A DNA stretch of 18,645 nucleotides. Source: a virus. Lineage: Duplodnaviria; Heunggongvirae; Uroviricota; Caudoviricetes. The stretch lies in IMG/VR virus record IMGVR_UViG_3300029241_000184. One strand, written 5' to 3'. Within the stretch, counting starts at the first letter, position 1. Each line of letters opens with the position of its first letter. The translations under genes were made by a program, and so were the position numbers. Positions 1-13,352 of this stretch are shown here, piece after piece. Below the pieces are notes generated by a model, which was not told where the DNA came from, searched no databases, and worked only from the letters and a program-made list of their open reading frames with translations.

Positions 1-54
1 GCTGATAGAAACAGAAGCCACTGGAGCACCTCAAAAACACCATCATACACTAAA

Positions 55-210
55 TCAGTAAGTTGGCAGCATCACCTCCATATTGTTCTTTTCAGCATAA
101 TCTTTGATATATTCGGACTGATTATGTAAAGAATATTGCTGATGGTCGGTAGACATCCTCAAGTACTGCGCGACCCTAACTCTATGATTTTTGTCATTTT
201 CGCTAGCCAT
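55..210 (-). pseudogene. Short ORF (51 aa) with a serine-recombinase-like N-terminus; probable truncated or frameshifted gene remnant
   Basis: My own translation of the minus strand from ATG at 210 gives MASENDKNHRVRVAQYLRMSTDHQQYSLHNQSEYIKDYAEKNNMEVMLPTY then a stop at 55-57. The R-x-S-T-D-x-Q / YSL.NQ / YAE pattern resembles the catalytic N-terminus of resolvase/invertase-type serine recombinases. Below the 60-aa ORF track threshold; too short to be a functional recombinase. Confidence 0.3.
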
Positions 211-492: not shown

Positions 493-1722
493 TTATGCGG
501 CAATAACTTTGCATTTTTGAGACGAAACATAGTCACTCCACCATTGCATGAGAACCACCCGTTCAGTGAGATACTCTGCACGATTGTAGGCTGCAATTAT
601 TTCATCTTTCTTCGAGTGGGCAAGGGCGGCTTCTAAGACATCAGTCCTAAACTTGCCAGACTCCTCAGCAGCCGTTCTAGCAATGGATCGCATACCGTGA
701 GCTACAAGCTCACCTCCGAAACCCATACGGATTATGGCCGCATTAGCTGTTTGTTCATGCATGTGATTGAGTGGAGCTTTGATACTGGGGAACACCCACT
801 CTCTATGCCCGCTGATGACTTTCATTAAATCCAAAACTCGCAAAGCTTCTTTGCTCAGTGGAACTTTGTGAGGCTTCTTCATTTTCATAAACTCCGCCGG
901 GATGTTCCACATGCCAGTTTCAATATCAATATCTGACCATCTTGTGCGAACAGCTTCACCTGGGCGAACCCATGTGAGAAGTTGCCACTCAATCAGTAGC
1001 CTTGTTTCCAAACGGATAGAAGCATTGTTTAGAGCAACCAAGAAGCGAGGGAGTTCGGAAGGGGGTAATGCTGGCATATTCTGTTTTTTTGGCTTGCTGA
1101 ACCGTTGCCCCAGGTTGTCTGCCGGGTTGAATTCTATGAGTTCTTCTGTTGCTGCATAGCGGAAAATTTCATTCAGGCGGGATATGATGCGGCGAAGTGT
1201 TTCAAGGACACCTCGTTTTTCTATGGGTTCTAAATGCTGTTTAAGCATTTTAGGGCGAATCTCCTTAATTGGGGTATCACCCAATGTGGAAAAGATATTT
1301 CTCTCTAGGCTTCGCCAGATGTCGTTAGCATGATCTTGGGAGATGCCTGACGTTTTGACTTTCTCATCAAGCCACTTCTTGGCTACTGCTTGAAATGTAT
1401 GTTCCGTGGCATCTTTCAGTGCATTGGCTTTTTGGTTGTTATGAACTTGGGGGTCTATACCATTTGTAAGCAACGACAAGTATTCATCACGTAAAGCTCG
1501 TGCCTTCGCAAGTGTAAGGTGAGGATAGGTTCCTAAGCTCACCTTAGTTCGCTTTTTGGTCACAGGCACTGCATATCTGAAATACCAATTTTTCTTCCCT
1601 CCCTTCGCCAGGGGAGCGATTCGCAACAGCAAACCATCGCCGTCAAAAAGGTTAACCTCTTTTTCGGCAGGTTTGGTGCTTTTGATTTCAGTGTCAGTGA
1701 GCTTCTTAGCGATTTTGGCCAT
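493..1722 (-). CDS. int: Tyrosine recombinase, P4-family integrase (integrase of an older, neighbouring island)
   Basis: ORF 493..1803; preferred start is the in-frame ATG at 1722 (MAKIAKKLTDTEIK..., GAGGG about 10 nt upstream). N-terminus KLTDTEIK...DGDGLLL is typical of P4-like integrase arm-binding domains; C-terminus carries HGMRS and AYNRAEY, consistent with the H-x-x-R and catalytic Tyr boxes. Paralogous to the integrase at 11401..12591. Confidence 0.88.
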   Translation of the reverse strand: MAKIAKKLTDTEIKSTKPAEKEVNLFDGDGLLLRIAPLAKGGKKNWYFRYAVPVTKKRTKVSLGTYPHLTLAKARALRDEYLSLLTNGIDPQVHNNQKANALKDATEHTFQAVAKKWLDEKVKTSGISQDHANDIWRSLERNIFSTLGDTPIKEIRPKMLKQHLEPIEKRGVLETLRRIISRLNEIFRYAATEELIEFNPADNLGQRFSKPKKQNMPALPPSELPRFLVALNNASIRLETRLLIEWQLLTWVRPGEAVRTRWSDIDIETGMWNIPAEFMKMKKPHKVPLSKEALRVLDLMKVISGHREWVFPSIKAPLNHMHEQTANAAIIRMGFGGELVAHGMRSIARTAAEESGKFRTDVLEAALAHSKKDEIIAAYNRAEYLTERVVLMQWWSDYVSSQKCKVIAA

Positions 1723-1820
1723 GTTTGGGACCCTCGATTTTAGGACCCATCTTCGTGGGTCCCATTCAGGGTGCCATAACTCGTAGTTCTCAGCAATTCT
1801 CACTAGACTACAATAGACGT

Positions 1821-1854
1821 AAAAAAGCCCGCAGAGCTTGTGCTGTGCGGGCTT
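1821..1854 (-). terminator. Hairpin plus T-run on the minus strand; diverged duplicate of the ssrA terminator
   Basis: aaaaaagcccgcagagcttgtgctgtgcgggctt matches the ssrA terminator at 12708..12742 (aaaaaagcccacagggcttgtgccgtgcgggctt) with three substitutions; GC stem followed by a T-run when read on the minus strand. Confidence 0.5.
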
Positions 1855-1888
1855 AGTAGACTTTACTGAACTTCAGTACATCAATATT

Positions 1889-1910
1889 TGGTGGGCTGGC
1901 GGAGTCTGAC
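1889..1910. other. Degenerate copy of the ssrA 3' end; likely attR of the P4-like satellite and junction between the two tandem islands
   Basis: tggtgggctggcggagtctgac versus the true ssrA 3' end tggtggagctggcgggagttgaac at 12775..12798 (about 20 of 24 positions with two 1-nt gaps), lying the same distance and order from the terminator-like hairpin as in the intact ssrA. Confidence 0.5.
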
Positions 1911-1961
1911 TTTGTCTTTTAATTGTCTGTATTTAATGGTTTTTTATTAAATTGAGATTTT

Positions 1962-1982
1962 GGATATACCTAAGCGTATACC
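1962..1982. repeat. Two GTATACC-type motifs (ggatatacc, cgtatacc); candidate integrase arm-type sites on the far arm
   Basis: Same heptamer family as the four copies at 12614..12661 next to int; acctaagcgtataccaat here versus acctaaacgtataccaat there. Confidence 0.4.
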
Positions 1983-2102
1983 AATTCTGCTTTGTAGGCA
2001 CAAAAATACAGTCATGCTGGTATGACAATTCCAACCCCGTCACAGCTTGTATCCATCTGGTCACACATGACAAAAGCAGGCAACCAATACTAAGAATTTA
2101 CT

Positions 2103-2762
2103 TTACGGCTCTTCGCTATTGGGGTTCTTAACTTTTTCCCATTCAATGCCCAACCCTTTAAATTTTTGTGCAAATGGGATTACTATGAGCGCAACACAAG
2201 CCCCTAATAGTGCCATTCTCTCAGTGGTTAAAAAATTAAATCGTATATCTGCAATTACTATAAGTAATAAGGCGACAGCAAGAAACCAAGTAACTCGTTG
2301 AAAAATATCCATCGTTTGAGATTTTTTCTGCCGAATATCATTTTTCCTAACTGCTGACTGCTCTGCGGTAAGGGCTCGAAAAGTTGGGAAAAGATTGAAA
2401 TCAGATTTAACTAATTCACCCGAATCACTGACTGAATACAGTGAAAATGGCAATGGGTTATTAGGCAGGGAGGATACGGTCACCAAGAAAAGTGGGATTT
2501 TTTCATTTCCAATTGCTTGTTTGTATCTTTTTAATTGATTTAGAGTGTTTTCGCTATGTGCAAATCTGTCTGACTTTATTTCAATAATAGCAAGATATTC
2601 TTTCTTTTCTGGATCTATAATTGCAAAGTCTGGTCTATATGTGTTTTTGCCATCGTTGGAGAAAAATGCTGGTTCGTATAATATAGAATCTTTGGTATAT
2701 CCTAGTGATAATAAGTATTCAGAGAATTTATTTTCCGCCTCTGAATGGTAATTGTTGTCCAT
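2103..2762 (-). CDS. Membrane-anchored protein with an N-terminal restriction-endonuclease-like (PD-(D/E)xK, HsdR-N-like) motif and two C-terminal transmembrane helices; AT-rich cargo gene
   Basis: 219-aa ORF with GAGAGGGA about 7 nt upstream of the ATG at 2762. N-terminal segment LGY...YRPDFAIIDPEKKEYLAIIEIKS carries a D ... E-I-K arrangement as in restriction-endonuclease-fold proteins; C-terminus has two hydrophobic stretches (WFLAVALLLIVIADI and ALLGACVALIVIPFA). Visibly AT-rich compared with the neighbouring primase gene. Confidence 0.7.
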   Translation of the reverse strand: MDNNYHSEAENKFSEYLLSLGYTKDSILYEPAFFSNDGKNTYRPDFAIIDPEKKEYLAIIEIKSDRFAHSENTLNQLKRYKQAIGNEKIPLFLVTVSSLPNNPLPFSLYSVSDSGELVKSDFNLFPTFRALTAEQSAVRKNDIRQKKSQTMDIFQRVTWFLAVALLLIVIADIRFNFLTTERMALLGACVALIVIPFAQKFKGLGIEWEKVKNPNSEEP

Positions 2763-2956
2763 TACAGTCCCTCTCTGCTGTGTGAAAACTAGTGAGCTAA
2801 ATTAATAAGGTAACTAAAAAACGCAAGAGATTCAATTGATTAACGAGTGATAGGTCAAGTCAAGGTCAAACTCGGCGATCATGATGGTTATCTTGTTGAA
2901 TCACAGCCAGACATGATGAATTTCTAGGTTGGAGAAAAAACTTTTTTTCAGGAAAA

Positions 2957-3058
2957 CTGTTCACACTGTTCACACTGTTCACACCGTTGTTTTTGCTTTT
3001 AATTTCATAGTGATACGTTGTGAATGGTTGGTAAACAGTGAACACTTTACTGTTCATT
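2957..3058. repeat. Iteron cluster: three tandem CTGTTCACA repeats (2957..2983) plus inverted and variant copies (gtgaaca 3038..3044, tgttcat 3052..3058); candidate ori-type alpha-binding iterons
   Basis: Tandem 9-bp repeats seen directly; the core TGTTCAC matches the P4 type I iteron octamer TGTTCACC that I recall as the alpha-protein binding site in P4 ori and crr. Lies immediately downstream of the alpha-like gene. Confidence 0.6.
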
Positions 3059-3108
3059 TTTGCCGTTTTGCAGGTAAAAAAAGACCGGCGATTGCCGGTC
3101 AGGGTAGA

Positions 3109-5442
3109 TTATTTTGCTACAGGGTCATCACATTTCGGCAGCCAGTCGGCGTTGCTTTCCTCTCTTAGTGTTAGATTGGTTTGTATGCCCTGATTTTTTC
3201 GGCGCTTCTCATAACTTAGCCCGTACTCTTTCAGCATAGCTGGCAGCCCCTTACCGAACATGGTGAGGCTCAGGGTGTTCCTGTAGCCGTGGGCCTCCAT
3301 ATACGCCAGATAGGCATGATACAGATACAGGCGCGGCTGACGCGGAATGATGTTGGCATTGCCAATATACATTCCCTCAGGCTCCGGCAGTGCTTCCAGA
3401 TAGCCGCAAAAATCAAATGTCGGGTCAGCATCGCGTTTAATACTGAGCGCCTCGTCCGAGTTCTGCTGTGACTGGAGCAGGGCGCGGGCGGTCATCGGGT
3501 CGCTGAACTTCTGCATAAGCTGCCGAACAATCACCGCCAGCTCACGGGCGATTTTATTCTTAAGCTGCGGGTCACGTTCCTCCGGGGCAATCTGTTCCGG
3601 GAAATGCAGAATCACCCGGCGCCGTGAGACACCGCCGCTACGGTCGGTAAAGCGCATCGGGTTATTGTTCACGGCCAGAATCACCGCTGGAATATGGGTG
3701 GAGTACGCATCCTTGTATTTCGGGTCAACGGAGACCGCATCCCCGCCGGTGATGGCCTTGAGTCCTGCCCCGTCACCACTCCATTTTTCCTGGTCAGGCA
3801 GGCGTATCAGCGAGAAGCCAATCAGCGCAGCGCGTTCACGCGGTGATTCCAGCGTTTCGATGGTGGCCGATGTGGCGTTATCTTCCCCGGCGAGCAGGGT
3901 CGCAATTTCGGCCAGAATACTTTTCCCGCTGCCACCCGGCCCGGTCACTTCGAGAAAGAGCTGCCAGTCGTAGCGGTTCGCCAGTACCATAAACAGGGCG
4001 GCAAGTATCACGTCGCGTTTTTCCGGTCGGCCACCGGCGGCACGGTCGAGCCAGCGCCAGAAATCCGGCGCATGGGTTTCCAGCGTTTCGCCCTCCACCG
4101 GTGGGGTAAAATCGACATCACAGAGTGTGCGCAGCCAGTGCGATTTATGATGCGGGCTGAAAGTACCGGTAGCGGTATCGAGTACGCCGTTACGAAAACC
4201 AATCAGACGGCGCGCCGGTGCGTCCTGCTGCGGAATAATCAGTTTCAGGGTCTCCACCACTGAGGCAATTTTCCCCGACGAGAACGGTGCGCGCAGACGC
4301 TGAAATAACCCGGCCACGTCGCGGGCAAAATCCGATGGCGGAATGATTTTCCATATACCGGCCTCATAGCGGGACAGGAGCTGGCCATTTGCGTCCACGG
4401 CCAGCGCTTCGCCGTAATGTTCATGCACCCGCATTGCCTTTTCACTGGTGCTCATGGCGGTAAATTCCGCCTCGCTCATGGTAGTGAAAGGACTGTCAGC
4501 CAGTGGCCGGATGGCGTCATAAATCGCTTTCCGCGTCGCCTCTTCGCCTTTCTGAACGAACGCATCATTCCAGTCACCGAACACCGGCGGCAGGGCAACA
4601 ACACCCTCACAGGCGTCTGCGGCCGCAGCGGCTTTTGTCTGGCCGGCGCCGTTAAGGTCACGGTCGGCGGCGAGGACAATCTGACAGGCCGGGTGTTTCT
4701 GACGGGCAAGGCTCGCCAGAGAAAAGAGGTTCACGGAGGACAGCGCCACCATGACGGTTTCGCTGGTCAGGTGATGTACGGTGAGTGCCGTCGCATAACC
4801 CTCCGCAATCCACAGGCGTTTTCCGGCCTGTTTTTTTCCTCCGATGACATGACATGTCCCTTTGACCTGACCGCCTTTCAGGGTGCGTTTGAGACCGTCA
4901 GCATTAATAAGCTGAAGGTTAACCAGTGCGCCGGTATCCTCATACAGCGGGACAACCACATCCCCGGCGCGGAACGTCACGCCGCCGGTTTTATGCATGA
5001 CTGTCAGTACCGGACATTCCCGGTCGGGGAACCCCTTGCGGGTGAGGTAGGCGTTGTCGGTGGCCGGGCGCGTTTTCTCCAGCAGTCTGACGGCCAGCGC
5101 GGCCGCCGCTTTGCGGTCGGCATCGGTTTCAGCCTCTGCGGCTGCCATCACTTCCGGGGCAACCGGCGACAGATTGCCGGTCACGGCGTTCACCTTCCCG
5201 GCGGCTTCTGACGGGGTCACGCCAAACACTTTTTCTACCAGCTTAAGCCCGTCACCCGCGCCGCACTGATTGCAGAACCACGTCCCGCGCCCTTCTTTAT
5301 CGTCAAAGCGAAAACGGTCAGAGCCGCCACACACCGGACAGGCCTGATGGCGGTTTTTAATCACCTTCACACCCAGCGCCGGAAGAATGCGCGGCCAGTG
5401 GCCGCACGCCTGTTTTACCGTTTCTGTTACGTTCATTTTCAT
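3109..5442 (-). CDS. P4 alpha-type primase/helicase (zinc-binding primase N-terminus plus helicase domain)
   Basis: ORF 3109..5493; preferred start at ATG 5442 (MKMNVTETV..., GAGGGAG upstream) giving 777 aa, the length of P4 alpha. N-terminal CPVCGG...CNQCG zinc-binding motif; Walker A-like GPGGSGKS in the C-terminal half. Confidence 0.9.
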   Translation of the reverse strand: MKMNVTETVKQACGHWPRILPALGVKVIKNRHQACPVCGGSDRFRFDDKEGRGTWFCNQCGAGDGLKLVEKVFGVTPSEAAGKVNAVTGNLSPVAPEVMAAAEAETDADRKAAAALAVRLLEKTRPATDNAYLTRKGFPDRECPVLTVMHKTGGVTFRAGDVVVPLYEDTGALVNLQLINADGLKRTLKGGQVKGTCHVIGGKKQAGKRLWIAEGYATALTVHHLTSETVMVALSSVNLFSLASLARQKHPACQIVLAADRDLNGAGQTKAAAAADACEGVVALPPVFGDWNDAFVQKGEEATRKAIYDAIRPLADSPFTTMSEAEFTAMSTSEKAMRVHEHYGEALAVDANGQLLSRYEAGIWKIIPPSDFARDVAGLFQRLRAPFSSGKIASVVETLKLIIPQQDAPARRLIGFRNGVLDTATGTFSPHHKSHWLRTLCDVDFTPPVEGETLETHAPDFWRWLDRAAGGRPEKRDVILAALFMVLANRYDWQLFLEVTGPGGSGKSILAEIATLLAGEDNATSATIETLESPRERAALIGFSLIRLPDQEKWSGDGAGLKAITGGDAVSVDPKYKDAYSTHIPAVILAVNNNPMRFTDRSGGVSRRRVILHFPEQIAPEERDPQLKNKIARELAVIVRQLMQKFSDPMTARALLQSQQNSDEALSIKRDADPTFDFCGYLEALPEPEGMYIGNANIIPRQPRLYLYHAYLAYMEAHGYRNTLSLTMFGKGLPAMLKEYGLSYEKRRKNQGIQTNLTLREESNADWLPKCDDPVAK

Positions 5443-5456
5443 CGTTGTTTTCTCCC

Positions 5457-5777
5457 TCAGTGCACTACCGGTACGGTGATGTGACGGGCGCAAAGCTCAT
5501 CCATCACGGCCAGCCCGAGAAAGGACAGCGACGGCGCGGCTTTGAGTGGACCGGCTTCCATTAAATCTTCCAGTAATGCACAGGCTATCTGGCGGCCTTT
5601 TTCCTCGCCGTGCTGGCGCAGGTAGAAGCCCTCCAGCTCGGTAGCGATGGCACTTTCCAGCGCGTCGAGGGTGAGGTTCGGGTAGCGGCGCTGGCGTTCG
5701 CACAGGGTCAGCCATGCACAGGCCACGGCGCGACGATACAGCGCGGCGCGTAATACGGGCGGTAATGGCTTTTTCAT
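5457..5777 (-). CDS. Hypothetical protein of the satellite early operon (106 aa)
   Basis: ORF whose start overlaps the stop of the upstream ORF (translational coupling), ending 15 nt before the alpha start; same strand and operon as the alpha gene. No recognisable motif. Confidence 0.55.
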
Positions 5778-6001
5778 ACGTTGCCCTCCCCGGTCAGCCA
5801 GTGCTGATTGCAGCGTTCAACCACGCCGTCGAGCTGGGCGGTCATGAGGTAAATCACGGAGGTGAGCTGTAACTGCTGCGCCGGGTCACGACGAACGGTG
5901 GCGCAGTCCTGTACCTGCATCAGGTCGCTGACGAGCTGGCCGACATTGCGCATATGCTCCAGACATTCGAGGTCACGGGCGGTAATGGTGGTGTGTCTCA
6001 T
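5774..6001 (-). CDS. Hypothetical small protein of the satellite early operon (75 aa)
   Basis: ORF with start/stop overlaps (ATGA) to both neighbours on the same strand, typical of coupled small genes in P4-like early operons. Confidence 0.5.
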
Positions 6002-6192
6002 GCGCGCACCTCCGCAACAGGCAGACGGCCAGCAAATGAGAGGACGTAATCGCGAACGAGGGAAAGGCGTGCGGCGTGCTCATCACCGGCAACGGTGCGG
6101 AGCATACAAATACGGGGTTTACGGTCTGCACGACGAACGGCGGCAAACACAAAAACAAATTGCGGGTGTAACGGGGTGAGGATAGTAGCCAT
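5998..6192 (-). CDS. Hypothetical small protein (64 aa), possibly Icd-like; short form of the 185-aa ORF
   Basis: Internal ATG at 6192 ([19 protein letters not shown]...) preceded by GGAGG about 8 nt upstream; the longer 5998..6555 extension is low-complexity and overlaps the AlpA-like gene, so the short form is preferred. The Icd-like label is a recollection of similar annotations, not verified. Confidence 0.45.
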
Positions 6193-6551
6193 GATGGCAG
6201 CCTCCATTGAGTAGCGGTTACTGCTACCACCGGAAACGCCAATTTCACTGGTGGCAGCCCGAACGGGGTTGGCGTAACCGGCCTCAATGGATACCGGCCA
6301 GCCCGAAGGCTGCCCCGCCCGGACTACCATTATCTTGCTGGAACCATGGTGTATAAAAAGACACCACAACCCGGAAAATGGGTGTGCCTGAGCTACGACG
6401 AAAAAAAAGACGCACGGCGCGTCTGGTGTCGCCATTGAGTTTCGCGGAACGCCAATTCCGGCTGTCGATTTTGCGACAGCGGGAAAACTATACCTGGAAA
6501 CGGCGAAAAGAAGCAAGCCAGAAAAAGGGGCTGAATGCTGAACGGTCATCA

Positions 6552-6818
6552 TCATGCGTCACAGCCCCGGTTGCGTTCGGCAATGCGATCTGCCATCCAT
6601 GCGGTGATTTCAGACTGCGCCCACGCCACGTTTTTACCGCCCAGGCTGATTTGTTTCGGGAAGGCTTCCCGGCTGATGAGGTCATAAATGGTCGACCGGG
6701 ACAGGCCACACAGATGCATCACTTCGGGCAGGCGGATAAAGCGCTCCTGAACGGCATCAGAAACCGGCATCAGCGGCGCGGCAGGGGCAGAAGACGGGGA
6801 AGAAAAAGCGGTGTGCAT
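6552..6818 (-). CDS. alpA: AlpA-family phage transcriptional regulator (small DNA-binding, excisionase-like)
   Basis: [54 protein letters not shown] matches the AlpA/excisionase-like helix-turn-helix family; GAGGT upstream of the ATG at 6818. An alternative start at 6770 (MPVSD) is possible. Confidence 0.8.
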
Positions 6819-7087
6819 CGGGCTACCTCACAAAGTCCATACAGTGCCGGTCGTGTCCGTCCGGCTTCGGGTAGCTCTCTATTTTGTGAATATTTTCCCT
6901 CAGGGCAACAAGTCTTTTTATAGCTCCTCGTCACACAACAGAGCGATTTTTGAACAATGGCAAACGCTGGCAAACAGATGCAAATCAATGCATTACATTG
7001 CAGTAACTTTAAGTACTTTCACTTATATATTTCCTCATAATTAATCGGAAAAAAGACTAAATCCGACACCCCAGGCAAAAAGCAAAA

Positions 7088-7192
7088 GGTGAACAGTAGT
7101 GAACAGTCGGTGAACAGTTACACCCTCAACTGTTCACCCTTTATCTTACTGTATTACTTATCTTTTTCTTTTCAGTGAACAGTAGTGAATAG
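7088..7192. repeat. Second iteron cluster: GGTGAACAGT x3 (7088..7117), inverted TGTTCACC (7131..7138), GTGAACAG (7175..7182) and variant gtgaatag; candidate crr-type alpha-binding iterons in the divergent early/late control region
   Basis: Direct and inverted copies of the same octamer as at 2957..3058, about 4.1 kb away; I recall that P4 ori and crr are separated by about 4.5 kb. Confidence 0.6.
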
Positions 7193-7268
7193 TTATAAGT
7201 AAAAAAACAAACAGTGAGTAAGGTTTTCCTGAGACCTTTCTCTGGCCAGCCGGGTTTTAAGGTCTGTT

Positions 7269-7286
7269 TGTGCCATTTTTGCCACA
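7269..7286 (+). promoter_or_regulatory. TGT-N12-ACA dyad upstream of the sid-like gene; candidate Ogr/Delta activator site of the late promoter
   Basis: TGTgccatttttgccACA about 75-90 nt upstream of the ATG at 7359; P2/P4 late promoters carry a TGT-N12-ACA element near -55. No clear -10 identified, so low confidence. Confidence 0.3.
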
Positions 7287-7358
7287 ACGGCAATGAATCG
7301 TGTTGTTGTGTCTGGCGCGGCAGAATCTCCTCAGGTTGAAACGAAGAGGAGACCCGAC

Positions 7359-8096
7359 ATGACTCAGACCGCTGTTATTCCCGACTACCTTAAACCTGCA
7401 ATGGAACGCCTTGAGACTGCCCGCTCGGCGCATCTCGTCAATGCCAGCCGTATGGATGAAACCACGACGGCCATCAGCCAGGTGCAAACGCAAAAAAAGG
7501 AACTGGAGCAGGAAAACGGCAATGATTCCGGCGCATGGCGCGCCGCCTTTCGTGCCGGTGGTGCTGTCATTACCGACGAGCTGAAACAACGCCATCTGGC
7601 GCGCGTGGCACGGCGGGAACTGGCGCAGGAATGTGACAGCATGAACGAGGTACTGTCTTTTGAGCTGGACAGGCTCAAAGGAGCCTGTGACCGCACGGCC
7701 AGAGCATACCGTCAGGCACATCACGGCGTCCTCAGTCAGTATGCAGAGCATGAACTTGATGCTGCCCTGCGTGAAAGCTGCGGTGCCCTCATCAGAGCAA
7801 TGAAACTCAACATACTGGTTCTGAATAATCCGCTTGCTAATACGACCGGGCATCAGGGATATATCGAACCGGAAAAAGTTGTAATGCAGCAGGTGAAAGC
7901 GTGGCTTGAACAGGCCGTAAAGGGCTGCAATATCCGTCTGACCGATGAACCGGTGCTGTTTAAAACAGGGCTGTCGGCTTCCACACTGCCGCATATGGAA
8001 CATGACGTTGCGACCATGCCCGGTCAGCGAAAAGTCTGGCAGGAAAAAATGTGGGAACGTGAAGCTGACCTGAAAGCACGGGGGTTATTGTCATGA
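7359..8096 (+). CDS. sid: Sid-like protein (P4 capsid size determination / external scaffold), first gene of the late operon
   Basis: ORF 7293..8096 trimmed to ATG 7359 (MTQTAVIPDYLKP..., AAGAGGAG upstream) giving 245 aa, close to P4 Sid (244 aa); position immediately upstream of the Ogr/Delta-like and psu-like genes matches the P4 sid-delta-psu order. Called from size and synteny only. Confidence 0.55.
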   Translation: MTQTAVIPDYLKPAMERLETARSAHLVNASRMDETTTAISQVQTQKKELEQENGNDSGAWRAAFRAGGAVITDELKQRHLARVARRELAQECDSMNEVLSFELDRLKGACDRTARAYRQAHHGVLSQYAEHELDAALRESCGALIRAMKLNILVLNNPLANTTGHQGYIEPEKVVMQQVKAWLEQAVKGCNIRLTDEPVLFKTGLSASTLPHMEHDVATMPGQRKVWQEKMWEREADLKARGLLS

Positions 8097-8338
8097 TGCG
8101 CTGCCCTTTCTGCCGCACGGCGGCACACGTTCGCACCAGCCGCTATATGTCTGACAGCGTCAAAGAGAGTTACCTGCAGTGCCAGAATGTGCACTGCTCG
8201 GCGACATTCAAAACGCATGAGTCCATCTTTGAAGTGATACGTTCGCCGGTCGTCGATGAGAAACCCGCGCCGGTGCCGACAGCCCCCGTGGCACCCCGTC
8301 GGGTAAAAGGCTGCTACAGCTCGCCGTTCCGCCATTAA
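8093..8338 (+). CDS. Ogr/Delta-family zinc-finger late-gene transcriptional activator
   Basis: MMRCPFCRTAAHVRTSRYMSDSVKESYLQCQNVHCSATFKTHES has the C-x2-C ... C-x4-C arrangement and RTSRY / QCQN motifs of P2 Ogr and P4 Delta; start overlaps the stop of the sid-like gene. Confidence 0.85.
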   Translation: MMRCPFCRTAAHVRTSRYMSDSVKESYLQCQNVHCSATFKTHESIFEVIRSPVVDEKPAPVPTAPVAPRRVKGCYSSPFRH

Positions 8339-8354
8339 TCAGGAGAGACAACCC

Positions 8355-8921
8355 GTGACCACTCTGACCTTACAGCAGGCCTATGACGCCTGTCAGACGA
8401 ACAAAACCGCGTGGCTGAACCGTAAAACCGAACTGGCCGCCGCAATGCAGGAATATCAGGAATTATTGCTGGATGACAATGTATCAGGCTCCCGCAGATT
8501 ACAGATGCTGCGTGACCTGATTGACGTAAAAAAATGGGAAGTTAATCAGGCCGCCGGTCGCTACATCTTCTCGCATGAGGAGGTGCAGCGCATCAGCATC
8601 CGTAACCGGCTGCATGATTTTATGCAGCAGAACGGCGCAGAGCTGGCCGCCGCACTGGCACCGGAGCTGATGGGGATTAAAAACCAGCCCGCGATGATAA
8701 AAAATCGCGCGCTTGACCGTTCAGTCTCTTACCTGAGAGAAGCTCTTTCCGTCTGGCTGACCGCTGGAAATGACATTAATTATTCTGCACTGGATAACGA
8801 CATCTTAACGGCCATCGGATACAGGCCTGACGCGCCTTCGCGGGATGATAATCGTGAAAAATTCACCCCTGCACAGAACATGATTTACACCCGTCGACGC
8901 GCCGGACTGGCCGCGCAGTAG
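8355..8921 (+). CDS. psu: Psu-like protein (P4 polarity suppression / capsid decoration)
   Basis: 188 aa (P4 Psu is 190 aa), third gene of the sid-delta-psu type operon; N-terminal region ...QQAYDACQTNKTAWLNRKTELAAA... and QAAGRYI resemble Psu as I recall it. Confidence 0.75.
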   Translation: MTTLTLQQAYDACQTNKTAWLNRKTELAAAMQEYQELLLDDNVSGSRRLQMLRDLIDVKKWEVNQAAGRYIFSHEEVQRISIRNRLHDFMQQNGAELAAALAPELMGIKNQPAMIKNRALDRSVSYLREALSVWLTAGNDINYSALDNDILTAIGYRPDAPSRDDNREKFTPAQNMIYTRRRAGLAAQ

Positions 8922-8967
8922 TCTGTCAAAAAATCCCTGTAAATCCCGTCATTTTTCCCGAATTTAG

Positions 8968-8994
8968 CCATGCATCCCTAAGGTGCATGGTTTT
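8968..8994 (+). terminator. Candidate rho-independent terminator after the psu-like gene
   Basis: Inverted repeat ccatgca / tgcatgg with a 9-nt loop followed by tttt. Confidence 0.4.
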
Positions 8995-9094
8995 GCATGC
9001 GTTTTCCCGACCCTGCACTCCCTGCCAGCGCCAGTTGCGGCGCGGCCTGAGGCCACCTTTGCACCTGCATTAAAAGCGGTCCCTTAAGCGGGCA

Positions 9095-9113
9095 GGCGTG
9101 GCGGGGAGAGCAT
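9095..9113. other. cos-like site (P2/186/P4-type 19-nt cohesive end sequence)
   Basis: ggcgtggcggggagagcat differs at one position from the phage 186 cohesive end GGCGTGGCGGGGAAAGCAT as I recall it, and at three from P2 (GGCGAGGCGGGGAAAGCAC); lies just downstream of psu, where cos sits in P4. Confidence 0.55.
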
Positions 9114-9375
9114 TGCGCGCTAAGTTAAAGATACTTTTAATTTTACAACTACGTTGTGATATCTTTTTAACTCGCTAATTCAATAGTGATAAAACAATTT
9201 TTTATAGCTAATAAGAATCAATTCCAGACTAACAATCGTCAAAAACTATGTTTTGTGAATGGCTATCTAAAAATACTGGCTTAATTATTTGACGTGATCT
9301 AAAGTACTGATGAAATTATTATACTGATTTAATTTTTTAACTGCTAAAAACATTAACAAAAAATAAGGGATTCAC

Positions 9376-11361
9376 ATGGCAGAGAAATCATTTAATGTAG
9401 AAGTACAGATGGATTATTTAGATAAGGTTTCTAAATCTTCTGCATTACAAGCAATCGCTGAGTTGGTATGGAATGCCTTAGATGCTGATGCTGAAAATGT
9501 ATATGTTGATTTGACAGAGTCTGAATTAGGACTCTCGCATATATTTATCAGGGATGATGGTAATGGTATTCCCTATGAGAATGCAGAAAAATTATTTAGT
9601 TCACTGGGCGGATCATGGAAAAAAGACAAGGTTTTATCAGAAAGAAAATCTCGTTTTTTACACGGAAAAGAAGGGCAGGGACGTTTTAAGGCATTCTCAA
9701 TAGGTCGATATATTGAGTGGGATACTACTTATTTACTTGATGATGTATATTATGAATATAAAATAAAAGGAATAGCTGATAATAAGAAAAAGATTTCAGT
9801 TTCTGATAAGGTAGTATCAAGTGAAGTTAAATCAGGAACAGTTGTTTCTATATTGGAATTGGTGAAAAACTTCACCTCTTTGACACCTCAAAAACTATCT
9901 GAGTTTCTTTCCACTACACTTGCTTTATATCTTAGTAAATACCCATCCGTAAAAGTATTTGTAAATCGAGAACAAATCGATCCAACAGCACAGATTTTAT
10001 TTGATACAAGCTATAAATTAGATGATGTAGTTTATTGTGATGAATTACATTCATATGAGTTACAAGTTATTGAATGGAAGTCAGCTAAAGAAAATGAGAT
10101 TTTTTTATGCGACAAAGAAGGTTTTCCCTTAATAAGTTATGAGAAGAAAATTAGAGGGACTGGTACATATTCTTATTCTGTTTATTTGAAGTCTACACAT
10201 TTGACCAAACTTTCCCATGAGGGTACTTTGTCGCTCATGGATTTAGAGCCTTCTTTAAGCCCTGTATTAAATAAAGTCGAAGGTTTGATAAAGGAACACT
10301 TCCGGAAAAGAGATCATGAAAAGTCAAGGGAGTTAATTGATAAATGGAAAAATGAAGGTGTTTATCCGTATGTTGGTAAGGCCGAAAATATTGTTGAGGA
10401 TGCTGAAAGAAAAGTATTCGATATTATGGCCATCAATGTTATAAAATACATACCACAATTTGATAATGGCGATCTTAAACTTAAGAAATTTCAGTTTAAA
10501 TTACTCAAGCATATTGTTGGGAGTTGCCCTGATGACTTGAGAACTATATTAGAGGAGGTTCTCTCGCTTCCTAAGGAAAAACAAGCTGAATTGGCTGAGA
10601 TATTAAGGGATGCCTCATTGTCAGCTGTTATTAGTGTTTCCAAAATAATTACTGATAGATTGAAGTTCATATCTGGGCTTGAGAATGTATTATTTCATCC
10701 GAATACAAGAAAAGTATTCAAAGAGAGAAGTCAGCTTCATAAAATAATGGCGGATAATACATGGTTTTTTGGTGAGTCTTTTACATTGAGTGTCAATGAT
10801 AAGTCACTAACTGAAGTATTAAAAGTACATTTGGAAAAGCAAGGGATTGATATTCCAGTTGATGAGAAAGTAACTAGGATAGATGGTAGTGTAGGTATTG
10901 TTGATTTAATGCTTACTAGAAGTATAGGCAAAAATTACCCAGATGAGCGTGAGCATATTATTATCGAATTAAAGGCACCTAAAGTAAATATAGGTCAATC
11001 AGAAATAGAACAGGTTAAATCCTATGCGTATGCAGTTGCTGAAGACGCAAGATTTAATGGTTTAAAAACAAAGTGGAACTTCTGGGTTATATCGAATGAG
11101 CTCACAACTTATGCTCTCAGAGAATTAAAACAAAAAAACCTTCCTGAAGGTGCAATATATCAAGCTGAAGAAATGACTATTTGGATAAAAACTTGGTCCC
11201 AACTTATTCAAGAGAACAAACATAGATTGGGTTTTCTACAGAATCAGCTTAATATTTCGTATGACCGTGAAGATGGACTACAGTTCTTAAAGCAAAAGTA
11301 TGCTGAGTACACTGAGGGCGTTGTATTTGAAAATGAATCACAGGATGAGTATATAGATTAA
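9376..11361 (+). CDS. 661-aa GHKL-type (HATPase_c, Bergerat-fold) ATPase fused to a C-terminal PD-(D/E)xK-like nuclease motif; candidate single-gene anti-phage defense protein carried as satellite cargo
   Basis: Single uninterrupted ORF with AAGGGA 6 nt upstream of the ATG. N-terminus: E29-x3-N33-A-x-D36-A (N box; E29 codon at 9460), D60-D-G-N-G64-I (G1 box, 9556..9567), G97-K-E-G-Q-G102 (G2 box, 9664..9681). C-terminus: GIVD510LML ... IIIE531LK533 (D at 10903..10905, E-L-K at 10966..10974) in the arrangement of PD-(D/E)xK nucleases. Strongly AT-rich with A/T-ending codons, unlike the flanking P4 core genes. Confidence 0.85.
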   Translation: MAEKSFNVEVQMDYLDKVSKSSALQAIAELVWNALDADAENVYVDLTESELGLSHIFIRDDGNGIPYENAEKLFSSLGGSWKKDKVLSERKSRFLHGKEGQGRFKAFSIGRYIEWDTTYLLDDVYYEYKIKGIADNKKKISVSDKVVSSEVKSGTVVSILELVKNFTSLTPQKLSEFLSTTLALYLSKYPSVKVFVNREQIDPTAQILFDTSYKLDDVVYCDELHSYELQVIEWKSAKENEIFLCDKEGFPLISYEKKIRGTGTYSYSVYLKSTHLTKLSHEGTLSLMDLEPSLSPVLNKVEGLIKEHFRKRDHEKSRELIDKWKNEGVYPYVGKAENIVEDAERKVFDIMAINVIKYIPQFDNGDLKLKKFQFKLLKHIVGSCPDDLRTILEEVLSLPKEKQAELAEILRDASLSAVISVSKIITDRLKFISGLENVLFHPNTRKVFKERSQLHKIMADNTWFFGESFTLSVNDKSLTEVLKVHLEKQGIDIPVDEKVTRIDGSVGIVDLMLTRSIGKNYPDEREHIIIELKAPKVNIGQSEIEQVKSYAYAVAEDARFNGLKTKWNFWVISNELTTYALRELKQKNLPEGAIYQAEEMTIWIKTWSQLIQENKHRLGFLQNQLNISYDREDGLQFLKQKYAEYTEGVVFENESQDEYID

Positions 11362-11371
11362 CATAATTGAA

Positions 11372-11402
11372 AGGCTCGCCAGTTTATTCTGGCGAGTTTC
11401 TT
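11372..11402 (+). terminator. Rho-independent terminator after the cargo gene, convergent with the end of int
   Basis: Stem ctcgccag / ctggcgag (8 bp) with a 6-nt loop, followed by tttctt. Confidence 0.5.
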
Positions 11403-12591
11403 AAAGACTGGATACTTTATTACCCCACCAATTCATTAATTCTATTCTTTGCGGAAGATATATAGAGCGATTATAAGCTCTTCGTACTTCATCTTTATAA
11501 CTATGAGCTAGTGCTGCCTCAATAACATCAGCATTGAATCCTGCTTCATTCATGGCAGTACTGGCTATAGAACGTAAACCATGTGCAACAAGCTTTCCAC
11601 CATAACCAATTCTCTTCAGCGCAGCATTAGCAGTCTGGCTATTCATTGGCAGCTTAGGGTCATTTCTGCTAGGAAAAACATGTTCTCGATGGGCACTGAT
11701 TGGCTTCATCACTTCTAAAATTTCTAATGCTTGAGGAGACAAAGGTACGATGTGCTCTCGTTTAGCCTTCATCCGTTCGGCTGGAATCGTCCAAAGCTTC
11801 GCATCAAGATCGATCTCTTCCCACCGAGCTCCGGAAGCCTCAGAAGGACGCACAAGGGTCAGGAGCTGCCACTCAATTAGACAGCGAGTCGAAACAGATA
11901 GATTCGACATGACTAGAGAACGCATCAGCTTTGGCAATTCCTCTGGCCGCAGCGTCGGCATATTTTGCTTTTTGGGCTTCTCAAAGGCCATCCCAACTCC
12001 TGAGGCTGGGTTCGCATCAATCAGACCCGTGTTTACGGCATAAATCATTATCTCGTTAATGCGTTGCACCAGTCGACGTACAGTCTCAAGCGCCCCACGA
12101 GCTTTGATGGGCTCAAGAGCTTCAACCAGTGTCCGGGCTTTGATTTGCTGAACAGGGATCTCACCGATGGCAGGGAATACATCTTTCTCCAGTGAGCGCC
12201 AAATGTCTTTTGCGTAATCAGGGGTAACGCTTTTGCTTTTGAGCTGGAACCAGTTAGCGGCGACCGTTGAAAAAATACTGTCCAGTGCGATTTGCTGCTG
12301 TTCCTCTGCAACTTCAGCTTGAATCTGTGGGTCGATTCCATTGGCTAATAAGGCAAGGTAATCAGCTCTTAACCCTCGGGCATCAGCAAGCGATAGGGCG
12401 GGGAAGGCTCCGAGTCCCATCATTGTCCGCTGTTTTGTTGCCGGACGTTGATAACGGAAACGCCAGAGCTTTTTGCCGCTGGTTTTCACTATCAGGAAAA
12501 GCCCATCGCCATCATGTAGCGTTAGATCCTTCTCTAGCGCTTTAGCGCGCAGAACTTCGGTGTTGGTCAGGGGGCGTGTTGTCCGTGCCAC
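11401..12591 (-). CDS. int: Tyrosine recombinase, P4-family integrase of the satellite, adjacent to ssrA
   Basis: 396-aa ORF; N-terminal LTLHDGDGLFL...GKKLWRFRY as in P4-type integrases; C-terminal HGLRS and AYNRSIY catalytic boxes; same orientation as ssrA and immediately downstream of it. Confidence 0.92.
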   Translation of the reverse strand: MARTTRPLTNTEVLRAKALEKDLTLHDGDGLFLIVKTSGKKLWRFRYQRPATKQRTMMGLGAFPALSLADARGLRADYLALLANGIDPQIQAEVAEEQQQIALDSIFSTVAANWFQLKSKSVTPDYAKDIWRSLEKDVFPAIGEIPVQQIKARTLVEALEPIKARGALETVRRLVQRINEIMIYAVNTGLIDANPASGVGMAFEKPKKQNMPTLRPEELPKLMRSLVMSNLSVSTRCLIEWQLLTLVRPSEASGARWEEIDLDAKLWTIPAERMKAKREHIVPLSPQALEILEVMKPISAHREHVFPSRNDPKLPMNSQTANAALKRIGYGGKLVAHGLRSIASTAMNEAGFNADVIEAALAHSYKDEVRRAYNRSIYLPQRIELMNWWGNKVSSL

Positions 12592-12613
12592 TGTGGCCGC
12601 TCCTTCATGAATT

Positions 12614-12661
12614 GGTATACGCTTTTAGGTATACATCCTACCGTATACCTAAACGTATACC
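12614..12661. repeat. Four direct copies of a GTATAC(C) motif at 12- to 14-bp spacing between the int start and the ssrA terminator; candidate integrase arm-type sites
   Basis: ggtatac (12614), ggtatac (12628), cgtatacc (12642), cgtatacc (12654); the same motif recurs at 1962..1982 at the other end of the element. Confidence 0.45.
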
Positions 12662-12707
12662 AATAATCACCGGATTTAGCCGGATGCTCTCGGACAACTA
12701 CAGACAC

Positions 12708-12742
12708 AAAAAAGCCCACAGGGCTTGTGCCGTGCGGGCTTT
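12708..12742 (-). terminator. ssrA rho-independent terminator
   Basis: On the minus strand, stem aagcccgcacggcacaagccctgtgggctt followed by tttttt, about 33 nt downstream of the mature tmRNA 3' end. Confidence 0.7.
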
Positions 12743-12774
12743 CAGGATTTCACCGGACGTATCCGGATCATAAT

Positions 12775-13138
12775 GTGGTGGAGCTGGCGGGAGTTGAACC
12801 CGCGTCCGAAATTCCTACATCCTCGGTACTACATGCTTAGTCAGTCTTTATATTCGCTTGCCAGCTGCGGACGGACACGCCACTAACAAACTAGCCTGAT
12901 TAAGTTTTAACGCTTCAACCCCAGGCAGGGCTTCCACGCGATCTCTTTTGGGTTTGACCTCTCTTGATCCCCGTCCTAAGAGCGGAGGCTAGGGAGAGAG
13001 GGCTCTAAGCAGGTTATTAAGCTGCTAAAGCGTAGTTTTCGTCGTTTGCGACTATTTTTTGCGGCTTTTTACGAGGCCAACCGCCCCTCGGCATGCACCT
13101 TGGGTTTCGCAAATCCCGTCGAATCCAGAATCAGCCCC
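12775..13138 (-). ncRNA. ssrA: tmRNA (SsrA, transfer-messenger RNA)
   Basis: Minus strand reads GGGGCTGATTCTGGATTCGACGGG ... GGAGTTGAACCCGCCAGCTCCACCA; internal tag reading frame at 13017..13049 (minus) encodes ANDENYALAA followed by a stop. Length about 363 nt; ends are within a few nt. Confidence 0.95.
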
Positions 13139-13352
13139 AATGTGTAAAGGTAAGTATACCAGATTTATGAGCGCCATGACCAGCCTCAATGGCGTTATCG
13201 TTAAAGATTTAGCACCCATGTAGCCTGATTTTTATTCGATTAAGCAATGGGATGGCAACATTTGTGTCGGATGTGATAGCCAATAAGATGTTCATTCGCG
13301 CCGCCGGAGAGGGAGGCGCGGTGAGGAACTGGTCAATAATTGGAGTGCAGGT

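What the first reader, a model, noticed from the sequence alone, without database searches (positions are those of the whole stretch)
8922..11402. Sharp compositional switch: AT-rich cargo cassette embedded in a GC-rich P4 backbone
From the psu stop to the cargo terminator the sequence becomes markedly AT-rich (long A/T runs upstream of 9376 and A/T-ending codons throughout the 661-aa gene), whereas the primase and late genes are GC-rich. The same is true of 2103..2762. This indicates the cargo genes were acquired separately from the backbone and may be subject to H-NS-type silencing in the host.
Basis: seen in the sequence. Interest (0 to 1): 0.4.

Follow-up and report, generated by a model that had tools for sequence, protein, structure and literature searches.

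The report
AT-rich defence cargo in P4 satellite
The sharp drop in GC content is real and marks the already-described swappable "defence hotspot" of a P4-like phage satellite in E. coli, here loaded with an untested ATPase-nuclease gene that most likely cuts invading phage DNA.

Summary
It recovers near 11510. The window holds a P4-like satellite (~1910-12775) integrated at ssrA in E. coli.

Seven related ssrA satellites keep the flanks at 71-99.8% identity but carry seven other cargos. Homology breaks at 9120-9144 and 11414-11423, and every cargo has GC 0.31-0.36. This is the published P4 psu/cos-int antiviral hotspot (Rousset 2022). The exact cargo protein, WP_021536577, is already listed there as an untested "HATPase_c_3" system. 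The second AT-rich gene (2103-2762) lies in the published minor primase-att hotspot.

The cargo is a standalone GHKL ATPase fused to a PD-(D/E)xK nuclease (paraMORC3 architecture). It is under strong purifying selection, occurs in at least 579 species, and has no partner gene. Its closest validated analogue is VcSduA (type I-D Shedu), but the Shedu signature domain DUF4263 is not detectable.

H-NS silencing is untested and has no specific support. Overall this is a known phenomenon with a modestly interesting, uncharacterised cargo.

The parts
1889..1909 (.). attL: a degenerate copy of the ssrA 3' end (TGGTGGGCTGGCGGAGT) that marks the left end of the satellite
   Evidence: Read directly from the sequence. 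In E. coli B/C strains the sequence to its left adjoins an intact ssrA.
1910..2935 (.). Second variable AT-rich segment, corresponding to the minor primase-att hotspot
   Evidence: 1059 E. coli genomes match only from about window 2935-2967 rightwards; 6 match at least 80% of the 1880-3700 query that spans this segment. The hotspot is described in PMC13586616.
2103..2762 (-). 219-aa cargo 2: N-terminal PD-(D/E)xK core (D50, E61-x-K63) plus two predicted transmembrane helices and a conserved tail
   Evidence: Pfam HSDR_N_2 at 28.5 bits. Invariant residues across 22 homologues. Sequence. GC 0.358. The transmembrane helices were read from the hydrophobic stretches, not run through a predictor.
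2950..3060 (.). crr-like replication iterons (TGTTCAC repeats); AT-rich but conserved backbone
   Evidence: Motif positions 2958, 2967, 2976 and 3038, compared with the P4 crr annotation.
3109..5493 (-). P4 alpha-type primase-helicase (backbone, GC 0.583)
   Evidence: Pfam Zn_Ribbon_Prim, Toprim_3, D5_N, DUF5906 and Pox_D5.
7293..8921 (+). sid-like, delta and psu late operon (backbone)
   Evidence: Psu E=1.4e-87 and Ogr_Delta E=5.6e-21. 72% DNA identity to the P4 sid-delta-psu region.
8955..9120 (.). Conserved cos region. The 19-nt cohesive-end sequence GGCGTGGCGGGGAGAGCAT lies at 9095-9113 (16/19 identical to P4).
   Evidence: Alignment to the P4 genome ends. P2-like phages match only this stretch.
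9121..11420 (.). Variable AT-rich cassette (GC 0.327) in the main cos/psu-int hotspot
   Evidence: Homology breakpoints at 9120-9144 and 11414-11423 in 7 related satellites. Change-point at 9120|9121.
9121..9375 (+). Cargo upstream region, GC 0.25, with A/T runs. It presumably contains the cargo's own promoter, but none was predicted on the + strand.
   Evidence: No other ORF of 33 aa or more lies here.
9376..11361 (+). 661-aa cargo 1: GHKL ATPase (aa ~20-290 including the transducer), a helical linker, and a C-terminal PD-(D/E)xK nuclease (D510, E531-x-K533)
11375..11396 (.). GC-rich hairpin (8-bp stem) between the convergent cargo and int genes; a likely bidirectional terminator inside the variable segment
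11401..12591 (-). Satellite tyrosine integrase. Its last ~6 codons, after a conserved WWG, fall inside the variable cassette.
   Evidence: Pfam domains. C-terminal tails differ between satellites.
12776..13138 (-). ssrA (tmRNA). Its 3' end is attR.
   Evidence: ARAGORN and RefSeq annotation.

Best explanation
The window contains a ~10.9-kb P4-like phage satellite integrated at the 3' end of ssrA in E. coli. Its backbone is GC-rich (0.53-0.59) and comprises the alpha primase, regulators, sid-delta-psu, cos and int.

Two slots in this backbone are recombination hotspots where unrelated, AT-rich accessory cassettes are exchanged. The main slot lies between cos and the 3' end of int (9121-~11420). 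The minor slot lies between attL and the crr/primase region (~1910-2935). The compositional switch is the footprint of that cassette exchange. Cassettes are swapped by recombination in the conserved flanks, so the junctions sit at fixed positions: 7 nt after the cos cohesive end, and just after the integrase WWG codons.

The low GC is a property of the mobile accessory genes themselves, not of a particular donor. This gene family is AT-shifted relative to its surroundings in 91% of species examined.

The main cargo is a standalone 661-aa enzyme. Its N-terminal GHKL (MutL/MORC/Hsp90-type) ATPase with transducer domain is fused through a helical linker to a PD-(D/E)xK nuclease.

Inferred mechanism, not shown here: the ATPase dimerises on ATP binding to form a clamp. 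That clamp senses or holds invading phage DNA, or a phage-specific feature, and licenses the nuclease to cleave it. The lysogen and its satellite are thereby protected without a cognate methyltransferase. This is what was shown for the architecturally equivalent VcSduA.

The 219-aa second cargo is a small membrane-anchored PD-(D/E)xK protein and probably a second independent accessory or defence gene.
For: Satellite identity:
- Psu, Delta, primase and integrase domains are present.
- DNA identity to P4 is 72% up to its cos end, and the cos 19-mer matches in 16/19 positions.
- The element sits at ssrA with an attL remnant.

Hotspot behaviour:
- 463 genomes match part of the 4.5-kb query but only 11 share this cargo.
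- Seven other cargos were fetched: an ATP-dependent nuclease, a kinase plus PP2C, DUF4747, and several hypothetical proteins.
- Their homology breaks all fall at 9120-9144 and 11414-11423, and all have GC 0.31-0.36.
- The statistical change-point is at 9120|9121.
- P4's own gop-beta-cII slot has GC 0.359 against a backbone of 0.53-0.61.

Published descriptions:
- The psu-int hotspot next to cos is in PMC9122126.
- The minor primase-att hotspot is in PMC13586616.
- WP_021536577 is listed in Rousset Table S1 as a single-gene HATPase_c_3 system.

Cargo enzyme:
- Invariant E29/N33, D60xGxG and D510...E531xK533 across 29 homologues of 44-83% identity.
- GHKL plus middle-domain fold matches at E~1e-11.

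Standalone and mobile:
- At least 579 species loci.
- No neighbour gene conserved in more than 5 of 80 loci.
- Gene GC is below flank GC in 91% of loci.
- Also found on plasmids and in two Pasteurella phages.
- Klebsiella and Raoultella share only the ORF at the DNA level.

Functional gene: dN/dS is 0.06.

Analogue: VcSduA (GHKL + PD-(D/E)xK) gives more than 10,000-fold protection. That protection is abolished by E27A or K557A.
Against: - No experiment shows that this cargo protects against phage.
- It is not recognised by any PADLOC defence model except weak N-terminal REase_II hits.
- The Shedu signature domain DUF4263 is not detected by Pfam.
- The catalytic-residue spacing is 501-508 here against 530 in VcSduA, which argues against close orthology.
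- No + strand promoter was predicted upstream of the gene.
- The recombination mechanism at the fixed junctions is inferred from their positions only.
Confidence: 0.8

Rival explanations
1. The cargo is a solitary restriction endonuclease of the GHKL-containing Type II family (BbrUII/HgiDII-like) or a modification-dependent Type IV enzyme. It would recognise a DNA sequence or modification rather than acting as a Shedu-like sensor-nuclease.
For: - NCBIfam BbrUII/HgiDII model hit on aa 23-203 (E=2.8e-18).
- PADLOC REase_II hits on the N-terminus.
- Iyer et al. place paraMORCs mainly in R-M systems.
Against: - The score of 65.8 bits is far below the family cut-off of 550 and covers only the generic GHKL domain.
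- No methyltransferase is present in the satellite, and none is conserved next to homologues in 80 loci.
- An unregulated sequence-specific enzyme without a methylase would be lethal.
Confidence: 0.12
2. The AT-rich cassette is xenogeneic DNA kept transcriptionally silent by H-NS, so the cargo is effectively inert in the host. This is the strong form of the reader's suggestion.
For: - The segment has GC 0.25-0.33 in a 0.50 host, the composition class that H-NS prefers.
- H-NS silences the P4-like ssrA prophage CP4So in Shewanella (PMC8034616 abstract).
- One P4 hotspot system, PARIS-1, was active only from an inducible promoter.
Against: - dN/dS of 0.06 and fully conserved catalytic residues show that the protein is used.
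- The H-NS high-affinity motif is not enriched beyond composition, with 0 matches in 9121-9375.
- Most P4-hotspot systems work from their native promoters in hns+ K-12.
Confidence: 0.1
3. The cargo serves the satellite's own life cycle, for example DNA processing near cos or interference with the helper phage, rather than host defence.
For: It lies immediately next to cos, and GHKL-nuclease combinations act in DNA transactions such as MutL and topoisomerase VI.
Against: - The slot is filled by unrelated genes in sister satellites that have the same backbone.
- The gene family occurs in at least 579 species with no P4 genes nearby.
Confidence: 0.04

Closest known systems
P4 psu/cos-int antiviral hotspot (Rousset et al. 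2022, PMC9122126; Moura de Sousa et al. 2026, PMC13586616)
   Same: It has the same position (directly after cos, before int), the same behaviour (conserved flanks with unrelated cargos) and the same organism. This exact protein, WP_021536577, appears in their Table S1 as a single-gene 'HATPase_c_3' system. The second AT-rich gene sits in their minor primase-att hotspot.
   Different: Nothing differs structurally. A term search of Rousset et al.'s main text for 'GC content' found nothing. This analysis adds the uniform AT-richness of the cargos and the exact junction positions (7 nt after cos; after the WWG codons of int).
VcSduA, type I-D Shedu of Vibrio cholerae (Nat Microbiol 2025, PMC12137116)
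   Same: It is a single gene with an N-terminal GHKL ATPase carrying the catalytic Glu, a middle clamp-like domain and a C-terminal PD-(D/E)xK nuclease. It has no partner gene and was previously classed as paraMORC3.
   Different: VcSduA carries a detectable DUF4263 domain; this protein does not. The Glu-to-Lys spacing is 530 in VcSduA and 501-508 here.
paraMORC3 family (Iyer, Abhiman and Aravind 2008, PMC2292703)
   Same: The architecture matches: GHKL plus S5/transducer plus a C-terminal RE-fold nuclease with an E-D-ExK motif. [quoted passage not shown]
   Different: Membership rests on architecture and context. No reference paraMORC3 sequences were available to align.
Phage P4 gop-beta-cII cassette
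   Same: It occupies the same slot after cos and is also AT-rich (GC 0.359).
   Different: The genes are completely unrelated, and it is a three-gene system.

Membership tests
P4-like satellite | Core genes psu, delta, sid, alpha primase and integrase in P4 order | tested here: met
   Pfam Psu 292 bits, Ogr_Delta, primase domains and integrase. 72% DNA identity to the P4 sid-delta-psu region. The gene order matches the P4 map.
P4-like satellite | P2/P4-type cos site after psu | tested here: met
   The 19-mer at 9095-9113 is 16/19 identical to the P4 cohesive end. The flanking cos region aligns with P4 and P2-like phages.
P4-like satellite | Integration with att repeats flanking the element | tested here: met
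   attR is the ssrA 3' end at 12776. attL is a degenerate copy at 1889-1909.
P4 cos/psu-int defence hotspot | Variable gene content between conserved psu/cos and int flanks in related elements | tested here: met
   Eight different cargos in ssrA satellites, with breakpoints at 9120-9144 and 11414-11423.
P4 cos/psu-int defence hotspot | The cargo confers anti-phage protection | not testable with these tools
   The cargo is listed but untested in Rousset Table S1. More than a third of their cloned systems were active, as were 6 of 8 unknown loci in the 2026 study.
P4 primase-att minor hotspot | Accessory genes between the primase/crr region and the att site, variable among elements | tested here: met
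   1059 genomes share the primase end but only 6 match at least 80% of the query that contains this gene. The hotspot is described.
Shedu (SduA) | DUF4263 (PF14082) nuclease domain | tested here: not met
   No PF14082 hit even at E<=10 on the isolated C-terminal domain; only HSDR_N_2 at 25.1 bits. No PADLOC Shedu hit. None of 120 homologues carries PF14082 in the precomputed Pfam annotation. The profile against PDB sequences finds no Shedu.
Shedu (SduA) | PD-(D/E)xK fold resembling solved SduA nuclease domains | tested here: inconclusive
VcSduA / type I-D Shedu | N-terminal GHKL ATPase with conserved motifs, fused to a C-terminal PD-(D/E)xK nuclease in a single standalone gene | tested here: met
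   Invariant E29, N33, D60xGxG, G97-G102, D510 and E531xK533. No conserved neighbour gene.
VcSduA / type I-D Shedu | Sequence homology to VcSduA itself | not tested
   The VcSduA sequence was not retrievable because the supplement table is truncated. The different catalytic-residue spacing suggests a distinct lineage.
paraMORC3 | GHKL plus S5 module followed by a conserved C-terminal RE-fold domain with an E-D-ExK motif; standalone in proteobacteria | tested here: met
   Fold matches cover about 400 aa of the GHKL plus middle domains. Motifs and context.
BbrUII/HgiDII Type II restriction enzymes | Full-length match above the NCBIfam cut-off, and an adjacent methyltransferase | tested here: not met
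   65.8 bits against a cut-off of 550, covering aa 23-203 only. No methyltransferase in the satellite or conserved in 80 loci.
H-NS-silenced xenogeneic DNA | AT-rich relative to the host | tested here: met
   GC 0.33 against host 0.50.
H-NS-silenced xenogeneic DNA | H-NS occupancy and derepression in an hns mutant | not testable with these tools
   A motif proxy (TCGATAAATT with up to 2 mismatches, consensus recalled from memory) shows no enrichment beyond composition.

The most novel reading that the evidence does not exclude
The 661-aa cargo represents a large family (at least 579 species) of single-gene GHKL-ATPase/PD-(D/E)xK anti-phage nucleases that lacks DUF4263 and is missed by PADLOC. 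It would be a sister lineage to VcSduA-type Shedu, with its own sensing logic. In the same satellite, the 219-aa membrane-anchored PD-(D/E)xK protein in the second hotspot would be a further undescribed single-gene defence, making this a rare satellite with both hotspots loaded.
Probability: 0.4. Interest if true: 0.45.

Novelty: new member of a known kind. Interest (0 to 1): 0.25.

Why it matters
The compositional switch is a textbook signature of the P4 defence hotspot and adds nothing new in principle. It does show that a simple GC change-point locates the cassette junctions to within a few bases.

The practical value is in the cargo. It belongs to a widespread, strongly conserved, standalone ATPase-nuclease family that PADLOC does not recognise, and its only experimentally validated analogue is VcSduA. 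Testing it, and the small membrane nuclease in the second slot, would be a cheap way to extend the catalogue of single-gene anti-phage systems. It would also clarify how GHKL ATPases gate nucleases.

Tried and rejected
1. Direct repeats for att sites. The repeat finder found none because attL is degenerate with two 1-nt deletions. It was found by reading the sequence instead.
2. Shedu membership. All of the following failed to give a specific link: Pfam at E<=10, PADLOC at E<=10, and the family profile against PDB sequences. Fold search gave only a generic PD-(D/E)xK similarity.
3. Retrieving the VcSduA sequence or the Shedu type I-D accession lists from supplements. They were truncated or not held.
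4. A possible relationship between the two cargo nuclease domains. hhalign probability was 3%, so this was rejected.
5. A conserved partner gene or methyltransferase next to the cargo. None was found.
6. A supposed non-P4 context in a Salmonella Senftenberg 'plasmid'. This was rejected: the DNA match spans psu-cos-cargo-int-ssrA, so it is the same satellite lineage in what is probably chromosomal sequence.
7. H-NS motif enrichment. Not above the composition expectation.
8. Promoter scan. No convincing + strand sigma-70 site upstream of the cargo, and the number of sites found equals the shuffle expectation.
9. One dN/dS comparison (Raoultella) failed because of a frame error and was discarded.
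Full report
**What is in the window.** The right part of the window is the E. coli chromosome around ssrA: tmRNA at 12776-13138, then smpB, ratA, bamE, recN, nadK and grpE.

A P4-like satellite abuts the 3' end of ssrA. Its genes, in order, are:
- an integrase (11401-12591, minus strand)
- a 661-aa ORF (9376-11361)
- psu, delta and a sid-like gene (7293-8921)
- regulators, including an Ash/Icd-like protein
- the alpha primase-helicase (3109-5493)
- a 219-aa ORF (2103-2762)

The intact ssrA 3' end (TGGTGGAGCTGGCGGGAGT, from 12776) has a degenerate copy at 1889-1909. That copy is attL, so the satellite spans about 1910-12775. To the left lies a second integrase (493-1803). In E. coli B and C strains this integrase sits directly at ssrA, so the window shows two islands in tandem.

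DNA comparison with phage P4 gives 72% identity over ori-sid-delta-psu, ending at P4's right cos end. The 19-nt cohesive-end sequence is at 9095-9113, with 16/19 positions identical. P2-like phages match only about 8955-9124, the shared cos region.

**Check of the observation.** GC values:

| Region | GC | GC3 |
|---|---|---|
| Cargo CDS 9376-11361 | 0.335 | 0.258 |
| Upstream 9120-9375 | 0.250 | n/a |
| psu | 0.533 | n/a |
| delta | 0.589 | n/a |
| alpha primase | 0.583 | 0.644 |
| Host genes | 0.50-0.52 | n/a |

An unsupervised segmentation puts the change-points at 9120|9121 and 11510|11511. The z-score against the backbone is -22.6.

Two refinements apply.
- The stretch from the psu stop to cos (8922-9119) has GC 0.571 and is conserved backbone. 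The true left edge is therefore 9121, 7 nt after the cohesive-end sequence.
- On the right, low GC bleeds some 100-350 nt into the conserved integrase 3' end.

Two other AT-rich patches (about 2940-3085 and 6876-7230) are not cargo. They carry clusters of the P4 ori type-1 iteron TGTTCAC and correspond to crr and ori.

A 4.5-kb query from delta/psu to ssrA matches 463 of 5426 complete E. coli genomes. Only 11 of them carry the same cargo, all at 99.9-100% identity. I fetched seven other ssrA satellites. They carry an ATP-dependent nuclease, a Ser/Thr kinase plus PP2C phosphatase, DUF4747 plus a hypothetical protein, and four different hypothetical proteins.

In all seven, homology to the window stops at 9120-9144 and resumes at 11414-11423. 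Every variable segment has GC 0.31-0.36, against 0.53-0.54 for the left flank and 0.48-0.50 for the right. P4's own slot (gop-beta-cII) has GC 0.359.

The right junction lies inside the integrase gene. After a conserved WWG, each satellite has a different C-terminal tail of 5 to 13 residues.

For the second region, 1059 genomes match the primase end from about 2935-2967 rightwards. Only 6 match at least 80% of the 1880-3700 query that contains the 219-aa gene.

**Comparison with the literature.** This is the antiviral hotspot of P4-like satellites described by Rousset et al. 2022. It lies between psu and int, directly adjacent to cos, and shows more than 300 gene arrangements. Their Table S1 lists this exact protein, WP_021536577, as a single-gene 'HATPase_c_3' system. 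A search of the main text found no mention of it, so it appears not to have been among the systems they tested.

Moura de Sousa et al. 2026 confirm the main hotspot. They add a minor one between the primase and an att site that holds 7% of P4 defence systems, which is where the 219-aa gene sits. They also report that only about 1% of P4 satellites with complete systems carry defences in more than one hotspot.

**What the cargo is.**

N-terminal module:
- Pfam detects HATPase_c_3 at aa 25-139.
- In an alignment of 29 homologues (44-83% identity), the GHKL motifs E29/N33, D60xGxG and G97-G102 are invariant. So are D510 and E531-x-K533 in the C-terminal domain.
- The AlphaFold model (pLDDT 78) matches the GHKL plus middle/transducer modules of TRAP1/Hsp90, MORC3, MORC2, MutL and topoisomerase VI-B over about 400 residues, at E~1e-11.

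C-terminal domain:

Distribution and context:
- The family is found in at least 579 species across many phyla, on plasmids, and in two Pasteurella phages.
- No neighbour is conserved in more than 5 of 80 loci, and no methyltransferase partner is present.
- None of the 80 loci carries P4 genes. In 91% of 75 loci the gene has lower GC than its flanks, by 0.071 on average.
- An 83%-identical Klebsiella variicola copy lies in a different island, beside a replicase, an AAA_15/21 ATPase, HEPN-RES and IS110. It shares only the ORF at the DNA level. A Pseudomonas chlororaphis copy is a single-gene insertion with GC 0.415 in 0.64 surroundings.
- dN/dS is 0.06 against both a Salmonella and a Klebsiella copy, so the protein is under strong purifying selection.

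**Family assignment.** The architecture and standalone context fit the paraMORC3 family of Iyer et al. 2008. That family is defined by GHKL plus S5 plus a C-terminal RE-fold nuclease with E-D-ExK, found in proteobacteria, with a subset standing alone.

The only experimentally characterised protein of this architecture that I found is VcSduA of V. cholerae. It protects E. coli more than 10,000-fold against some Drexlerviridae, requires both E27 (ATPase) and K557 (nuclease), acts without killing the host, and was classed as type I-D Shedu.

Shedu is defined by the DUF4263 nuclease domain, and that feature is not met here:
- no PF14082 or PADLOC Shedu hit, even at E<=10
- none in the precomputed annotation of 120 homologues
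- no sequence-profile hit to solved Shedu structures

The spacing from the catalytic Glu to the catalytic Lys is 501-508 throughout this family, against 530 in VcSduA. I therefore treat the cargo as working like VcSduA but do not file it as Shedu.

The N-terminal hits to BbrUII/HgiDII and REase_II models cover only the generic GHKL domain and lie far below threshold.

**Mechanism.**

Shown here:
- fixed cassette junctions in conserved flanks
- an intact, selected, standalone ATPase-nuclease

Inferred:
- Cassettes are exchanged by recombination in the cos-proximal and int-3' flanks. Rousset et al. speculate that cos ends promote this.
- The enzyme uses ATP-driven GHKL dimerisation to clamp or sense foreign DNA and to license its PD-(D/E)xK nuclease, giving anti-phage protection.
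- The AT-richness reflects the general composition of genes that circulate among mobile elements, not a specific donor.

**H-NS.** Nothing here tests H-NS binding. Three observations weigh against strong silencing:
- purifying selection on the gene
- no enrichment of the high-affinity H-NS motif beyond composition (the consensus was recalled from memory)
- the activity of most P4-hotspot systems from native promoters in K-12

Some modulation remains plausible. H-NS silences the P4-like ssrA prophage CP4So in Shewanella.

**The second cargo.** The 219-aa protein has a PD-(D/E)xK core (D50, E61-x-K63 invariant). It also has two hydrophobic helices (about 157-175 and 183-198) and a highly conserved tail. 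It has about 70 homologues, mostly in Gammaproteobacteria, and no PADLOC match. It is not specifically related to the nuclease domain of the main cargo.

**Verdict.** The cargo is an untested member of a known architectural class. Interest is low to moderate.

Noticed in passing
window 493-1909: A second tyrosine integrase (436 aa) lies just left of the degenerate attL. In E. coli B/C/BL21 strains this same integrase sits directly next to intact ssrA. The P4-like satellite therefore inserted between ssrA and an older island, giving a tandem array.
   Followed up: partly
window 2103-2762 (minus strand): The 219-aa protein has a PD-(D/E)xK core, two apparent C-terminal transmembrane helices and an almost invariant tail (QKFKGLGIEWEK). 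It occupies the minor primase-att hotspot and is a candidate single-gene membrane-anchored nuclease absent from PADLOC. The precomputed annotation of its homologues cites PF27326, which the local Pfam copy did not report.
   Followed up: partly
window 11401-11423: The right cassette junction lies inside the integrase ORF. All compared satellites share ...LM.WWG and then have unrelated C-terminal tails of 5-13 residues, so each cargo brings its own integrase C-terminus and stop codon.
   Followed up: partly
window 2950-3060 and 7089-7193: Clusters of the P4 ori type-1 iteron (TGTTCAC/GTGAACA) mark crr-like and ori-like regions. These are AT-rich but conserved backbone, so low GC alone does not identify cargo.
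   Followed up: yes
L095 (NZ_LN868944.1, Salmonella Senftenberg 'plasmid 2', 727 kb): This record carries psu-cos-cargo-int-ssrA at 92% identity to window 8364-13185, flanked by iroBC and bapA. It looks like chromosomal sequence labelled as a plasmid. Upstream of psu the satellite is replaced by an AT-rich 1258-aa hypothetical gene.
   Followed up: partly
L009-L011 (Klebsiella variicola-type contigs): An 83%-identical cargo homologue sits in a non-P4 island next to a replicase, an AAA_15/AAA_21 ATPase with a 297-aa partner, a HEPN-RES protein and IS110. This looks like a defence island on a plasmid-like element.
   Followed up: no
window 1-76: Matches that start at window position 1 overlap annotated IS1A transposase genes in many genomes, and the query hit more than 9000 records. 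The window probably begins inside an IS1 copy.
   Followed up: no
window 1910-2935 and 9121-11420: Both P4 hotspots are occupied in the same satellite. The 2026 survey reports multi-hotspot loading in only about 1% of P4 satellites with complete known systems. Of the 11 E. coli genomes with the main cargo, only about 6 matched the second-cargo region at 80% coverage or more.
   Followed up: partly
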